A stretch of 64,000 bases of DNA from the human T2T-CHM13v2.0 reference genome, Homo sapiens: assembly GCF_009914755.1 (NCBI RefSeq), contig NC_060931.1; one strand, 5' to 3'. The translations under genes and the position numbers were made by a program. Positions 40,780-45,619 of this stretch are shown here, one piece after another. Within the stretch, counting starts at the first letter, position 1; each line of letters opens with the position of its first letter. The notes below the pieces were generated by a model that saw only the letters and a program-made list of their open reading frames with translations, made no database searches and was not told where the DNA came from.

Positions 40780-42400
40780 TTGAGGTTCCATTGAGTGTAA
40801 ATTCAATCCTGTGGATCTGGAAAAGATTATGGGATATAAACAGATGGAACCAAGGGACAGAAGCCTGGGAAAAGTGATCAGGCCTGGAGATGCACAAGCA
40901 AGATTTTGGAGTTTACACCAAAGGTGATAGCGTTAGCAGTCATGGGAGATGTCTAGGGAGAGGTAAAAACAGAAGAGCACAGCTCTAAAGAAGTCTGGGG
41001 GAACCTCTCCAGGAAGAGGAGGAGTTTGAAAAGGAAACTGAAACAAAGGGTAGGAGAAAATCAGGGTAGAAGCTGGAGTTCTAAAGGTGCAGGCTTACTA
41101 GTATCAAAAGTAATGATGACATCTTGAGCAATGGGCATAAAAACTATGAACTCCTTGGTTTGTTTATTCACTGGTGAATCCTGGGGGTAAGTTTGATAGA
41201 AAGAGGGAACAGAATCTAGATGGCAGAAGTTTTGGAGAGAATAGGTAGTGGTCAGTGAAATGCAACGGAAACCATTCCCTCTGATTGCTTTTCAGTGTAA
41301 GATGGGCATGAAATTGGACTGAACCCAGAGGGGAAGCAGGGTCAAGGGTTATTTTCCATTTTGTTTATTGGCTTTTGTTTTTCTTTTTCTCCAACCACAG
41401 TGAGAATTAATGATTAAATTATGAACTTGGAGAGAAAAATGAGATTCTGAAGTTTGGGATGGAGGAAAATGGTAGAAAAGGATCAGAGAGAGAGCCTGGG
41501 AAGATGACAGTTTTTTTGAAGGCAGAAGTGGCATCTCTTCTGAAAGAAAAGATAGGAATGAATGAAGGTAAAGAGAGATATTTTAATGTAAATATAAGGT
41601 GAGATGAAGGAATATAAAAGTGATGGCTCAATAGTTTCAGGAAAGTAAGAAGGAGAAGGTTTTAAGTAATCGTGCGAATAACGGAGAGAGGCGGGTTAGT
41701 CTTGATATAAACAGCCACCGTAGGGTGAGAGGAATCAAAAAGAGTGATAACAAAACCCTCCAAAAGTGTGGAGAAAGGCAGTTCAACAGTTCCAGAAAGT
41801 CTGATGAAAATGTACCATGTTAAGACATTGTGCTAGACACAGGAGCAGAGAAGATACAGTCCCTTTCGTCATGGAAATCACACTTAGTAGGAGAGCAGCT
41901 ACATGGGACAGGACCAGTTGACAGTAGATAAAAGTGAAATATTAACATAGTCACAGGATGATTTTCAACAATGTTTGCCAGACTTAGAACAGGAGGAGAG
42001 GATGTTGAGTTGAGGGCTGTGAAGATTCAAGTCAGCTCCTGACCTTATGTCAGTATTAAGAAGGGCAGCATTGATCTTGGTGAACACGACGAGCAGTCCA
42101 GGAAAGGAGTACAAAGAATAACGGCAAGCACTGGTCCTATGTGGAGGGTGTGAAAATGGTGTCAGGTGAAGAGGTATCACCTCCAACAGGACCATCAAGT
42201 TAGACATCTTTTAAGGGATAAGAGGTCCAGAGGTTAAGCCCTGATGGTGGGTCACTGAGACACTGTGGAGGGAAATGGATAAGCCAGGAGTGTTGTGAAG
42301 ATGTAATAAGGGCTGCACATGTCATAATGGGATCTAAACAAATAGGAGGTGTACAGGGCTTGTGGGGAGTTGGCTGCCCAGAAATCTGAGAGAAAATAAG
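40780..42400 (-). mobile_element. Degenerate L2 fragments
   Basis: Purine-rich L2-like tracts; cattgtgctagacacagg...cagtccctttcgtcatggaa. Confidence 0.5.
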
Positions 42401-42521
42401 ACATGTAAAGTCCTGCTCACCCATGAAAGTTTCTAAATACAGGAGCTCTGATTCTAAAATCATCTCCATTTATATTGGTTTATCTTTTTAAGACACTTTG
42501 TTGTTTCAGAGCTACCTTGCC

Positions 42522-42579
42522 ATGAAGATTCATTACCTTTTCTTTGCTCTTTTCTTCCTTGGCCAGCTGTCTACCTCAG
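42522..42579 (+). CDS. Candidate coding exon 1 (signal peptide MKIHYLFFALFFLGQLSTS-G) of a beta-defensin-like secreted peptide
   Basis: gccATG Kozak context; exactly 58 nt ending in phase 1 at donor CAG|gtaagg; K + hydrophobic core + small-residue cleavage region; resembles DEFB103 signal MRIHYLLFALLFLFL (recalled). Confidence 0.6.
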
Positions 42580-43271
42580 GTAAGGCTTTAGTAATAGTAA
42601 GGGAAGCATTTGAGTGAATGAGAAGCCAGCATGAAATGGCATAAACAACCATCTATTGCCAGTGTTAATTAGTAGCTGCTCAATGAACATTTGTTGGATC
42701 AATTTTTTTAATGGATGAATTAGTTTCTCCTTCTAGTCTAAAAAATATAATCGAATTTGAAGAATTCCATGATTCCCTTTCTATTTCATGCCAAATTTCT
42801 CATCTCAACGCTGGGATAGACTTAGGTTATTTCCAAGAAAGGGAATTTAGAGATCATCGCCTCTGTCCGCTAATTTTATAAATAATGATTTTGAGAGCTT
42901 GAGTACAGGTCCTCTAACTCCCAGTATACCATGAAAATGGAATATCTACTCTCATCTTTCTCTGCCTAATCAAAGTAAGGTGCAGATAGTGAGTTTGTTG
43001 TGAGCCTTAAATGTGCTAATTCATGTCAAGGGATTTTAGGAAGTGCTTAGCAAATAGAAAGTGCTTAAGAAATGTTAACGAATATTATCAATATTACTAT
43101 TTCACTTTTTTTTTTTTTAGTTTATCTTCTTCAGCAAGTTCTTCTTTCAGTTCAGAATATCCTCAAGCAGGATGAGCCTGGAGAAAAACTGTGAAATTAT
43201 TGGAGTTTACCTTTAAAACCATAAAATGATAAGGGCCTGATAGGGTTAAGAATCAAAAGAAAGGAATGGTG

Positions 43272-43573
43272 GGCCAGGCACGGTGGCTCACACCTGTAAT
43301 CCCAACAATTTGGGAGGCCAAGGTGGGCAGATCACAAGGTCAGGAGTTCAAGACCAGCCTGACCAACACGGTGAAGCCCCGTCACTACTGAAAACACAAA
43401 AACTAGCCTCAGTCGTGGTGGTGCATGCCTGTAATTCCACTACTCAGGAGGCTGAGGCAGGAGAATCACTTGAACTTGGGAGGCAGAGGTTGCAGTGACC
43501 TGAGATTGTGCCACTGCACTCTAGCCTGGGCGACAGAGCAAGACTTCGTCTCAAAAAAAAAAAAAAAAAAAAA
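43272..43573 (+). mobile_element. AluS in the intron of the candidate defensin-like gene
   Basis: Full dimer, long polyA, TSD aaaagaaaggaatggtgg. Confidence 0.95.
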
Positions 43574-44708
43574 AGAAAGGAATGGTGGAAAGAGATAATG
43601 TAAGGAAGATGAAAAACACTGATGGTATAAAGGAGAGAAGACGGAGGAGGAGCCAGTGATGGAATGATGGCACAGAAGGAGTTTGTGAGGGATTTAGAAA
43701 GTGGTGGTGCTGTTAATAGAAATGTGAATGCAGGGAAGAGGAGCTGATTGAGATGAAGCCAGTGAAAATGATTTTAGAAATTGTTACCTTGAAGTGACAG
43801 CAAGACTTCTAACTGGAGATAATGCAGTAGAGATATGAGACTAGGAAGAAGCTTGTGGCTGATGATAAACATTGTGGGATCCTTCCAAAAAAAGGACAGC
43901 CCTGAAGTTATGTGAATAATTTACTACCTCAAGGGCAATTCTCCCTGTCTCCTTTCTCTTTCTCTTGGGCCTGTTCTGGACATCTTGGTAATAAGTGTCT
44001 GTATTAGTGGAGGACAAGGGCAACACAGAAAACATCCACTCTCTTTTCTTCCTTTTTTCTCCTCTCTCTTCTCACCTTCCTTACTCTTCTCCCCTCTACC
44101 TTTTGGTTTTTTCTTGTTCCTGAACATATAAGGAAGCTTACAAATTACATACAATGCATGGGTTTTTTAAAAGCGAAATAATTAGTAAGAAGATTCAGGC
44201 AGAGGAAAATCAGCTTAGAAAAAAGTAATTTGCAAGAGTGATGATGTTGTTTTCTAAAATGGCCCTGGGTGAGGTAACTGAAAGTGGAGGGTAGTAGAAG
44301 TCCTTGACGTGGATTTCAGATAGGAATGGAGTGGTATATATTGCCTCCTGAGAAACTGTGCCTAAGATTTATACCCCAGCGGCCCTCACCTGCCTGCAAT
44401 GGCAGAACATCCAGCATGTATGATGTTCAGTACTGATCTTCTAGAAAGCCTAGCATTGGGCTCTCTCGGGATTGTCCAATAATGCTAGGCTTATACAGTC
44501 CAAAGGGAGGTCAACTGTTTTTCTGCACCAAGTGAGGTGTACCTGCAGGCCCTGTCAGTCCCTTCTGAAATATATTTTTTAATCTGATTGAAAACTATTT
44601 TGCTACCATGGGCCATTCTCATCAATATTTTCCCACAAAGCTTTATATTTGAAGTCTATTGCAAGTAAGTATATCCTTGTTTTTGTTCATCTATCTGTTT
44701 ATTTTTAG

Positions 44709-44881
44709 GAACTGAAGATGCTTATGAAGTCATTAGTATCATGGACTGTAAAAATCAAACACTGTGTAATTCTCAGAATACAACTAGACACTGCTCTCAT
44801 GGGAAGGAGATTGAACTATGTGTCTTGCGTCTTGGAAAAAATGCAAAGCGACTCACTAACCATGAAGAAACAGCAAATTAG
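44709..44881 (+). CDS. Candidate coding exon 2 (GTEDAYEVISIMDCKNQTLCNSQNTTRHCSHGKEIELCVLRLGKNAKRLTNHEETAN*) of the beta-defensin-like peptide; may be a decayed pseudogene
   Basis: Long pyrimidine tract + ttttag|G acceptor; open in the phase required by exon 1; 4 Cys; TAG at 44879-44881. Confidence 0.55.
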
Positions 44882-44910
44882 GAAGACAGGATGATCAATT
44901 TCCTTGTCTT

Positions 44911-44923
44911 ATTAAAAAATAAA
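44911..44923 (+). terminator. Polyadenylation signals ATTAAA (44911) and AATAAA (44918) with U-rich downstream tract
   Basis: attaaaaaataaagtctgctttcttttctctctcctttttattc, 30-40 nt after the stop codon. Confidence 0.55.
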
Positions 44924-45619
44924 GTCTGCTTTCTTTTCTCTCTCCTTTTATTCTCTAGTGACACATTTATTTATTGACAGTTTGGACAAAAGTTTATCAA
45001 GGAACTTTTCACGCTTAGGATGAATTACAACAAGAACCAACATTTCTTTAGTTCCAGCAGGTGAGAGAATACATACCTGAGAAACCAAAAGAATAGCTGT
45101 CCTGTTTGGGTTGTAGGGGAAAGTTTTGGGAATTGTGAAGTAAAGGAGGGAAGGATCTGGGATGACAATTACAGTGTGAGATACATTGATAAGGGCAGAT
45201 GTGAAAAGAGGTTATCAGGTTTTACTGTAGATTACAAATGGAGTTTTCCCTCAGTGTTTTGCAGGAGATTTTGGTAAAGAATTAGCTTTTAAATGTTTAT
45301 TTTTTGTTAAAATCTTTGATTGTAACATTTTAGCGCTTGCATTACTAAAGTGAATACTTTCTCCAGCTCTACCCAGACCAGACCTGAAAAGGTAGGAAAG
45401 TGATTCTTGGAGCCTGGGACTCCTTTCCATTGTTCTTGTCTTCTACTACGCCTATGATACCTGCAGCCCAGTACCTTTCCTCCACAGTTCCCTGATTCCA
45501 CTATGCTAGCTTCCCTTTGAAACCGCTGTGTTAAATTTTTAGGAAAATACGGGATGATGGAACAATTCTAATTTGGATAGAAAAGAGTGCCTACCCACCC
45601 AGTAGTATCTGTATTTTAT

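What the first reader, a model, noticed from the sequence alone, without database searches (positions are those of the whole stretch)
42522..44923. Hidden two-exon beta-defensin-like gene encoding an open 76-aa secreted peptide
Seen: gccATG at 42522 starts a 58-nt exon ending at a strong donor (CAG|gtaagg). A strong acceptor follows 2.1 kb later (ttttag|G at 44709), and the phase-1 splice gives an unbroken frame: MKIHYLFFALFFLGQLSTS|GTEDAYEVISIMDCKNQTLCNSQNTTRHCSHGKEIELCVLRLGKNAKRLTNHEETAN*. ATTAAA and AATAAA follow the stop. Established: a roughly 58-nt signal exon, phase-1 intron and Cys-rich exon 2 is typical beta-defensin architecture, and the signal resembles DEFB103 (MRIHYLLFALLFLFL, recalled). 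Inference: this is a divergent defensin-derived gene or relic. I cannot match it to any human DEFB and see no other clear DEFB in these 64 kb, so it may be an orphan outside the known clusters. Both exons fall below the ORF-track cutoff.
Basis: partly seen in the sequence, partly recalled or inferred. Interest (0 to 1): 0.85.

Follow-up and report, generated by a model that had tools for sequence, protein, structure and literature searches.

The report
Conserved secreted-peptide gene with defensin-type leader
A human "non-coding" RNA gene on chromosome 7 carries an intact reading frame for a small secreted peptide that is also present in rat and mouse, and its signal-peptide exon looks like that of beta-defensin 3 although the rest of the peptide is not a defensin.

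Summary
ATG 42522, donor CAG|GTAAGG after 42579, acceptor at 44709 and the 76-aa frame are all there. These are the first and last exons of the annotated lncRNA LINC03076.

The frame is not a chance ORF. The same 76-aa protein is already in public protein sets (P0003). Homologues exist in rat (rCG28045), mouse (mCG65056) and two unnamed records, at E 7.5e-13 to 5.6e-07. All four mature-region cysteines are invariant and the 50-column mature alignment has one single-residue insertion.

Exon 1 is beta-defensin-like. It has the same 58-nt coding length, phase and CAG|GT end as DEFB103 and DEFB4, and 30 of its first 39 nt match DEFB103. A whole-genome pattern search finds only DEFB103 and this locus.

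The mature part is not a beta-defensin. It has four cysteines rather than six, is not cationic, and gets no Pfam, HMM or profile-profile match.

Best reading: a conserved, fast-evolving secreted glycopeptide gene with a defensin-derived leader. The listed RefSeq transcript interrupts it with a partly repeat-derived middle exon. Translation is untested.

The parts
42366..42579 (+). Exon 1 of LINC03076: 5' UTR plus the signal-peptide coding segment
   Evidence: Exon borders come from the hub's annotation. The donor CAG|GTAAGG was read. The exon is single copy in the genome.
42403..42408 (+). Upstream ATG followed at once by TAA (minimal uORF)
   Evidence: Read directly from the sequence.
42423..42491 (+). 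22-aa upstream ORF in the 5' UTR, ending 30 nt before the main ATG
   Evidence: ORF list of the joined transcripts.
42522..42579 (+). 58-nt coding part of exon 1: a beta-defensin-type signal peptide (19 codons plus 1 base, phase 1)
   Evidence: Translation. 38 of 58 nt are identical to the DEFB103 exon-1 coding part, and 30 of the first 39. DEFB103 and DEFB4 have the same 58-nt length and CAG|GT end. Genome-wide pattern hits are DEFB103 and this locus, plus two poly-T runs in the broader pattern.
42580..44708 (+). Phase-1 intron of the two-exon coding form
43121..43338 (+). 218-nt middle exon of NR_110159.1. Its 3' part (from 43246) lies in a masked repeat. Including it shifts the frame and stops the ORF at TGA 43192-43194 (43 aa).
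   Evidence: Exon borders and the masked stretch 43246-43587 come from the hub's table. Calling the repeat an Alu is my reading of the sequence, not a tool result.
44709..44881 (+). Coding part of the last exon: a 57-residue mature peptide with four conserved cysteines and sequons NQT and NTT, then stop TAG
   Evidence: Translation. Homologues. Invariant columns. Single copy in the genome.
44882..44950 (+). 3' UTR with ATTAAA (44911-44916) and AATAAA (44918-44923). The annotated transcript ends 27 nt after the latter.
   Evidence: and the hub's annotation.

Best explanation
This is a small, conserved, protein-coding-type gene for a secreted peptide, filed in human RefSeq as the lncRNA LINC03076.

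Its ancestral form has two coding exons. Exon 1 supplies a beta-defensin-type signal peptide: 58 coding nt, phase 1, closest to DEFB103. The last exon supplies a roughly 57-residue mature peptide that is not a beta-defensin. It has four invariant cysteines (C-x5-C-x8-C-x8-C), a conserved N-glycosylation sequon just after the first cysteine, and net charge near zero or negative.

Proposed working (inferred):
- The leader sends the peptide into the ER and is cut near Ser19/Gly20.
- The mature part folds as one long beta-hairpin. One disulfide runs across the strands (Cys33-Cys57) and one closes the loop (Cys39-Cys48).
- It is N-glycosylated and secreted.
- It acts as a soluble ligand or coating glycopeptide rather than as a cationic, membrane-active defensin.
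- It evolves fast, as reproductive and immune secreted peptides do.

Origin (inferred): a beta-defensin gene copy that left the clusters before the primate-rodent split. Either its mature exon was remodelled beyond recognition, or its leader exon was joined to an unrelated exon.

In humans, the listed RefSeq transcript carries a partly repeat-derived middle exon that ends the frame early. Only transcripts that skip it can make the peptide.

Shown: the ORF, the splice sites, homologues in other species, the exon-1 likeness, and the absence of a defensin domain. Inferred: secretion, cleavage site, disulfides, glycosylation, translation in humans, and the evolutionary route.
For: ORF and splice sites:
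-.

The protein exists elsewhere:
- An exhaustive phmmer search of 1,835,955,588 representatives found 4 proteins at E<=0.001. They were a 69-aa protein (E 7.5e-13), two 63-aa proteins (5.5e-12 and 5.6e-07), and a 24-aa fragment identical to residues 9-32, which span the exon junction.
- The word-indexed searches returned 1 of 1, 5 of 133 and 5 of 354 candidates. They name the 69-aa protein rCG28045 of Rattus norvegicus and add mCG65056 of Mus musculus.

Conservation:
- In the 5-sequence alignment, 11 of 50 mature-region columns are invariant, and all 4 cysteines are among them (hypergeometric P 0.0014). Only one single-residue insertion occurs.
- Rat and mouse keep the MKIHY start and the junction Gly.
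- The rat protein's best hit in the human genome is this exon, at E 4.5e-5.
- The human sequence is no outlier. It is 42-58% identical to the others, which are 36-54% identical among themselves apart from rat-mouse at 72%.

Defensin-type leader:
-.
- The donor falls at exactly +58, as in DEFB103 and DEFB4. The simulated chance of G|GTRAG at that position is 4.4e-4.
- Published pattern: beta-defensin signal exons stay nearly static while mature exons diverge fast (PMC1156880, passages seen).

Fold:
- Two AlphaFold2 runs give the same hairpin, strands 25-38 and 52-65. Mean pLDDT is 64.5 for the whole protein and 75.7 for the mature part.
Against: - No evidence of translation or secretion was available. 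I had no Ribo-seq, mass spectrometry, SignalP or RNA-seq junction counts.
- RefSeq curates the gene as lncRNA. The one transcript shown to me includes the frame-breaking middle exon (hub table).
- Two upstream ATGs precede the start codon.
- Identity between species is low: 42-58% human to others and only 72% rat to mouse. By my own estimate that is not far above what unconstrained DNA would give. The case for constraint therefore rests on the open, nearly gapless frame and the invariant cysteines.
- Only species whose frame is open can appear in protein databases, so there is ascertainment bias.
- The rat, mouse and human entries are automatic predictions. The two unnamed ones are single-exon ORF calls whose N-termini read through the intron end.
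- In a 100-Mb simulation the best-prefix similarity score to the DEFB103 leader (54) was not reached: 2 of 661,539 open frames reached 48 or more and 0 reached 52 or more. My extrapolation of that tail to 6.2 Gb gives roughly 5-30 equally good peptides by chance. The leader likeness is significant only together with the donor position and the nucleotide match.
- The fold models rest on 5 sequences and match no solved structure.
Confidence: 0.6

Rival explanations
1. The gene was coding in the ancestor, and perhaps still is in rodents, but in humans it now works only as RNA or not at all. The intact ORF is a leftover that has not yet decayed.
For: RefSeq files it as lncRNA, and the listed transcript carries a partly repeat-derived middle exon. 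That exon stops the frame at 43 aa, 144 nt before the last junction, which by the usual rule makes it a nonsense-mediated-decay target. Two upstream ATGs lie in the 5' UTR. The human C-terminus runs 7 residues past the rodent end. No paper or small-protein supplement that I could search lists the peptide.
Against: The human frame keeps all 11 invariant mature-region residues, the start codon and both splice sites. The human sequence is not more diverged than the others. A 24-aa database entry spans the direct exon 1 to last exon junction, so a spliced coding form has been seen or predicted somewhere. A second RefSeq transcript exists that I could not see.
Confidence: 0.22
2. It is a decaying beta-defensin pseudogene or relic. 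The four cysteines are what is left of the six-cysteine motif.
For: The leader and the exon structure match DEFB103 and DEFB4. The span from the first to the fourth cysteine is 25 residues here, against 23 in beta-defensin 3.
Against: The four-cysteine pattern is the same in all 5 sequences and no species has the CC pair. A relic would decay differently in each lineage. There is no Pfam, HMM or profile-profile signal, and the frame is open in at least five records.
Confidence: 0.08
3. It is a chance ORF in a spliced lncRNA, and the defensin likeness is coincidence from a T-rich stretch that translates as Phe/Leu.
For: The transcript is AT-rich (37% GC), and an overlapping 58-aa ORF in another frame shows that open frames arise easily here. 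Two poly-T runs also match the broad leader pattern. The simulation gives a genome-wide expectation above 1 for the peptide score alone.
Against: Homologues reach E values down to 7.5e-13 with invariant cysteines. The exon-1 nucleotide match has z 8.5 against shuffles. The donor position is identical.
Confidence: 0.03
4. The mature part is a reduced Ly6/uPAR-type (three-finger) domain rather than a new fold.
For: For the rat protein, language-model features place Ly6 and three-finger-toxin clusters first, with a best score of 0.81, and all ten best family hits share that clan.
Against: The tool states that scores under 0.9 are leads only, and that a third of shuffled proteins do as well. Pfam gives no UPAR_LY6 or Toxin_TOLIP hit at E<=10. 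There are four cysteines instead of eight to ten. The fold searches list no three-finger chain.
Confidence: 0.04

Closest known systems
DEFB103 (beta-defensin 3) and DEFB4A (beta-defensin 2) genes, chromosome 8p23
   Same: All are two-coding-exon genes. The first coding segment is exactly 58 nt, phase 1 and ends CAG|GT. The leader shares 10 of its first 13 residues with DEFB103, and the other three are K/R or F/L swaps. In the first 39 nt this locus matches DEFB103 at 30 positions, more than DEFB4 does at 27.
   Different: The mature exon has four cysteines instead of six, with no CC pair. Its net charge is -1 (mouse -4, rat +2) rather than strongly positive. It gets no Pfam or profile match. 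The locus is on chromosome 7 with no defensin neighbour. Flanking DNA shows no clear similarity (z 3.0 upstream, 2.3 in the intron).
The beta-defensin evolutionary pattern of a static signal exon and a fast-diverging mature exon (PMC1156880, passages seen; it cites Morrison 2003 and Semple 2003, which I saw only as references)
   Same: A conserved leader is joined to a mature peptide that has diverged strongly. Rat and mouse mature parts are only 72% identical.
   Different: Here the divergence goes beyond the family's defining cysteine frame, so the product can no longer be filed as a defensin.
Mouse cryptdin-related sequence (CRS) peptides
   Same: As I recall, they keep the prepro region of alpha-defensins but carry a different cysteine array. 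That would be the same kind of defensin leader joined to a non-defensin mature peptide.
   Different: They descend from alpha-defensins, are rodent-specific and sit inside the defensin cluster. This gene is beta-defensin-like, is shared by primate and rodents, and stands alone.
Conserved small proteins encoded by genes annotated as lncRNA (a general class; no specific member was checked here)
   Same: A sub-100-codon ORF in an annotated lncRNA, conserved across mammals.
   Different: Most described cases are small membrane or cytosolic proteins. This one has a cleavable-looking signal peptide and a disulfide-bonded, glycosylated mature part. Translation is untested.

Membership tests
Beta-defensin (Pfam PF00711 Defensin_beta / PF13841 Defensin_beta_2) | Six cysteines spaced about C-x4-8-C-x3-7-C-x7-13-C-x4-7-CC | tested here: not met
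   All 5 family sequences have four cysteines, C-x5-C-x8-C-x8(9)-C, and no CC pair. In contrast, 36 of 37 human beta-defensin loci examined carry the motif.
Beta-defensin (Pfam PF00711 / PF13841) | Match to the family HMM at or above its cut-off | tested here: not met
   hmmscan found 0 families at E<=10 for the exon peptides and the 76-aa protein. Genome scans with both HMMs gave no hit in the window. My own HMM, run with --max, ranked the exon ORF 19th of 2894 at E 8.5.
Beta-defensin | Remote homology of the mature domain by profile-profile comparison | tested here: not met
   hhalign of the 5-sequence family against 19 human exon-2 peptides gave probability 0.7% over 5 aligned columns. I used 19 of 24 unique peptides. 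Three were dropped for extra upstream cysteines and two as near-duplicates.
Beta-defensin | Gene layout: signal peptide on its own exon, phase-1 intron, mature peptide on the next coding exon | tested here: met
   The 58-nt coding segment ends CAG|GT, as in DEFB103 and DEFB4.
Beta-defensin | Leader sequence related to beta-defensin leaders | tested here: met
   38 of 58 nt are identical to DEFB103, z 8.5. Genome-wide pattern hits are 3 DEFB103 copies plus this locus. The broader pattern adds only 2 poly-T runs. Caveat: the peptide score alone is not genome-wide significant.
Beta-defensin | Cationic mature peptide | tested here: not met
   Net charge is -1 in human, +2 in rat and -4 in mouse.
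Beta-defensin | Location in a beta-defensin gene cluster | tested here: not met
   Pfam-positive exons lie on chr8, 20, 6, 11 and 4. The nearest chr7 hit is a sub-threshold one (E 1.62) 19 Mb away.
Conserved secreted small protein encoded in an annotated lncRNA | ORF conserved in other species with constrained residues | tested here: met
Conserved secreted small protein encoded in an annotated lncRNA | Cleavable N-terminal signal peptide | tested here: inconclusive
   No signal-peptide predictor was on hand. By eye: Lys2, an uncharged stretch from Ile3 to Leu16, and small residues at 17 and 19 before Gly20. AlphaFold2 makes residues 4-17 a helix. It resembles a known secretory leader.
Conserved secreted small protein encoded in an annotated lncRNA | Evidence of translation | not testable with these tools
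   No Ribo-seq or proteomic data were available. One small-protein supplement held no match, and another could not be opened.
Ly6/uPAR three-finger domain | Match to PF00021 or PF00087, and 8-10 cysteines | tested here: not met
   No Pfam hit at E<=10 and only four cysteines. The sole support is a language-model score of 0.81, below the tool's bar.

The most novel reading that the evidence does not exclude
LINC03076 and its rodent counterparts are the founding members of an undescribed mammalian family of secreted, N-glycosylated, two-disulfide hairpin peptides. The family arose from a beta-defensin gene that kept its leader exon and replaced or remodelled its mature domain. The peptide is translated in humans from the exon-skipping transcript. 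It would be the first beta-defensin-derived gene outside the known clusters, with a non-antimicrobial role such as signalling or reproduction.
Probability: 0.35. Interest if true: 0.7.

Novelty: new variant of a known kind. Interest (0 to 1): 0.55.

Why it matters
If the peptide is made, a human gene now listed as non-coding would be a secreted-protein gene shared with rodents. It could then be studied by knockout in mouse.

It would also show a beta-defensin leader exon outliving the defensin domain itself, on a chromosome with no defensin cluster. That is a clear example of how secreted-peptide families spawn new products.

The practical consequence is annotation. The locus deserves a coding-potential review (PhyloCSF, Ribo-seq) in human, mouse and rat.

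Tried and rejected
**Searches for a known family or fold**
- Pfam on the exon peptides and on the 76-aa protein: nothing at E<=10.
- PDB by profile: 0 matches at E<=10.
- Foldseek against PDB with the first, low-confidence model: 0 matches at E<=0.001 of 217 at E<=10.
- VIA-align wide with the mature-part model: 5 of 48,161 chains reached Z>=2, best 2.5, all generic long hairpins.
- ESM Atlas with the human protein: held letter for letter, no usable hit. With the rat protein: Ly6/three-finger clusters at 0.81, below the tool's bar and not backed by Pfam.

**Searches for relatives in the human genome**
- Paralogues of the mature exon: only the locus itself, the others at E>2.
- A chr22 stretch found with the rat protein (E 0.36) has only two cysteines and is chance.
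- A 20-aa protein search with the leader found only itself, so that search is too blunt for such a short query. The reverse DNA search with DEFB103 exon 1 found only its 3 copies.
- A decayed six-cysteine exon elsewhere in the 64 kb: none. The best was E 0.38 for a 15-aa frame.
- Repeat origin of the two coding exons: both are single copy.

**Papers**
- LINC03076, NR_110159, rCG28045/mCG65056/A6IDZ8, the three leader strings, and TMEM168 with defensin: 0 papers each.
- Beta-defensin with 7q31: 15 papers, and the 10 listed looked irrelevant from title and abstract start.
- LOC101928012: 1 paper that looked irrelevant from its listing.
- Defensin, smORF, secreted, lncRNA and cysteine together: 7 papers, none about this locus in the 5 listed.
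- The supplement of PMC11042228 holds neither the peptide nor the gene name.

As a result, only the DEFB103 and DEFB4 leaders were compared.
- The supplements of PMC13223753, a proteogenomic small-ORF study, could not be opened. They may hold evidence on translation.
Full report
**What is there.**
- gccATG lies at 42522. The coding stretch runs 58 nt to CAG|GTAAGG at 42579/42580.
- The acceptor TTTTTAG|G opens an exon at 44709.
- Joining the two exons gives a closed 76-codon frame ending at TAG 44879-44881.
- ATTAAA and AATAAA follow at 44911-44923.

**Transcript context.** Both splice sites are exon borders of LINC03076 in the hub's annotation table.
- The one transcript listed there has a third, middle exon (43121-43338). 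Its 3' part lies in a masked repeat that I read as an Alu.
- Including that exon shifts the frame and stops it after 43 codons, 144 nt before the last junction.
- Only a transcript that skips the middle exon encodes the 76-aa product. The second annotated transcript was not shown to me.
- Two upstream ATGs, one a 22-codon ORF, lie in the 5' UTR.
- Both coding exons are single copy in the genome.

**It is not a chance ORF.**
The ESM Atlas also holds it letter for letter.
- An exhaustive phmmer pass over 1.84 billion representatives found 4 proteins at E<=0.001: a 69-aa protein (7.5e-13), two 63-aa proteins (5.5e-12 and 5.6e-07), and a 24-aa fragment identical to residues 9-32, which cross the exon junction.
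- Profile searches name the 69-aa protein rCG28045 of rat (UniProt A6IDZ8) and add mCG65056 of mouse. They find no further member: 5 of 133 and 5 of 354 candidates.
- Rat and mouse start with the same MKIHY and keep Gly at the junction.
- The two unnamed 63-aa proteins begin with residues that match the translated end of the human intron. They are therefore unspliced ORF calls over the orthologous exon.
- Over the 50 mature-region columns, 11 are invariant and include all four cysteines (hypergeometric P 0.0014). There is one single-residue insertion and no other gap.
- The rat protein's best hit in the human genome is this exon (E 4.5e-5).
- The human sequence is no more diverged than the others.

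**Caveats on constraint.**
- Identities are low (42-58% human to others, 72% rat to mouse). By my own estimate this is not far above neutral expectation.
- Databases can only show species with an open frame.
- The named entries are automatic predictions.

**The leader is beta-defensin-like.**
- Scanning the genome with Pfam Defensin_beta gave 7 exons on chr8. Upstream of one of them I read a signal exon beginning MRIHY. Its second exon is Beta-defensin 3 by PDB entry 1kj6.
- That exon's coding part is 58 nt and ends CAG|GTAAGA. The beta-defensin 2 gene has the same length and a CAG|GTGAGA end.
- This locus matches DEFB103 at 38 of 58 nt, and at 30 of the first 39. DEFB4 matches DEFB103 at 27 of those 39.
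- All 10 identical residues fall in the first 13, and the other three are K/R or F/L swaps.
- A degenerate pattern for the first nine residues hits four places in 3.1 Gb: three DEFB103 copies and this locus. The reversed control hits none.
- A broader pattern adds only two poly-T runs.

**Against the leader link.**
- The flanks show no clear similarity (z 3.0 and 2.3).
- In 100 Mb of simulated sequence, 2 of 661,539 open frames reached a score of 48 and none reached 52, against 54 here. My extrapolation gives roughly 5-30 such peptides genome-wide by chance.
- Significance comes from adding the donor at exactly +58 (G|GT 0.0108, G|GTRAG 4.4e-4) and the nucleotide-level match.
- I put homology of the leader at about 80%.

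**The mature part is not a beta-defensin.**
- It has four cysteines (C-x5-C-x8-C-x8-C) with no CC pair, in all five sequences.
- Pfam finds nothing at E<=10.
- Defensin_beta_2 finds 52 places in the genome at E<=10, none in the window.
- An HMM of 24 human six-cysteine cores, run without filters over 2894 window frames, ranks this exon 19th at E 8.5. It finds no decayed defensin exon elsewhere.
- hhalign against 19 human exon-2 peptides gives 0.7% probability.
- Net charge is -1 in human, +2 in rat and -4 in mouse.
- An NQT sequon two residues after the first cysteine is kept in 4 of 5 sequences.

**Fold.**
- AlphaFold2 on the 5-sequence alignment gives mean pLDDT 64.5 for the whole protein and 75.7 for the mature part.
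- Both runs give the same long hairpin, strands 25-38 and 52-65.
- In that register Cys33 faces Cys57, and Cys39 and Cys48 bracket the loop. The disulfide pairing is my inference from the register, not a measured distance.
- No solved structure matches.
- A language-model lead to Ly6/three-finger proteins (0.81) is below the tool's bar and unsupported by Pfam.

**How it most likely works.** The leader takes the peptide into the secretory pathway and is removed near residue 19/20. The mature part forms a two-disulfide, N-glycosylated hairpin and is secreted. Because it is not cationic, it probably acts as a ligand or coating glycopeptide rather than by disrupting membranes. These steps are inferred.

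The pattern of a static leader and a runaway mature exon is the published habit of beta-defensin genes (PMC1156880, passages seen). Here it has gone past the family's cysteine frame.

**Novelty.** The ORF is already in protein databases as an unnamed prediction, so it is not strictly hidden. I found no paper on it, on the gene name, on the rodent entries or on the leader strings. One small-protein supplement lacks it, and another could not be opened. The link to the beta-defensin leader, and the recognition of a conserved four-cysteine family, appear to be unreported within what I could search.

**Open questions.** Translation and secretion, the tissue of expression, the share of exon-skipping transcripts, the gene's range among mammals, and synteny of the rodent genes are all untested.

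Noticed in passing
window 43121-43338 (repeat part from 43246): The middle exon of the listed transcript ends at a donor (AAG|GTCAGG) inside a masked repeat that reads like a sense-strand Alu. In the three-exon transcript, an ATG within that repeat opens an 81-aa frame that runs into the same last-exon reading frame and shares its 57 C-terminal residues.
   Followed up: partly
window 42403-42491: Two upstream ATGs lie in the annotated 5' UTR: an ATG-TAA pair and a 22-codon ORF ending 30 nt before the main start.
   Followed up: no
window 44709-44950, other frame: A 58-aa ATG-initiated ORF overlaps the coding frame of the last exon in another frame. Open frames arise easily in this AT-rich exon.
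   Followed up: no
P0007 (no coordinates; residues 9-32 of the 76-aa protein): A 24-aa database entry of unknown source is identical across the junction of the first and last exons. It could come from spliced RNA or from a fragment of the predicted protein.
   Followed up: no
G000 chr8: 7.14-7.16 Mb, 12.03-12.04 Mb, 12.57-12.58 Mb (L001-L003, L005-L007): In this assembly the beta-defensin 2 and beta-defensin 3 exons each occur three times with identical scores, in three blocks of chr8.
   Followed up: no
G000 chr11: 71.76 and 71.81 Mb; chr4: 9.42 and 9.47 Mb (L037-L039, L042): Open six-cysteine exons above the Defensin_beta_2 cut-off lie on chr11 and chr4, outside the chr8, chr20 and chr6 groups of hits.
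   Followed up: no
L050 (G000 chr22:19391896-19392012, minus strand): A 79-codon open frame weakly resembles the rat protein (E 0.36, 41% over 39 residues) but has only two cysteines. I judged it chance.
   Followed up: yes
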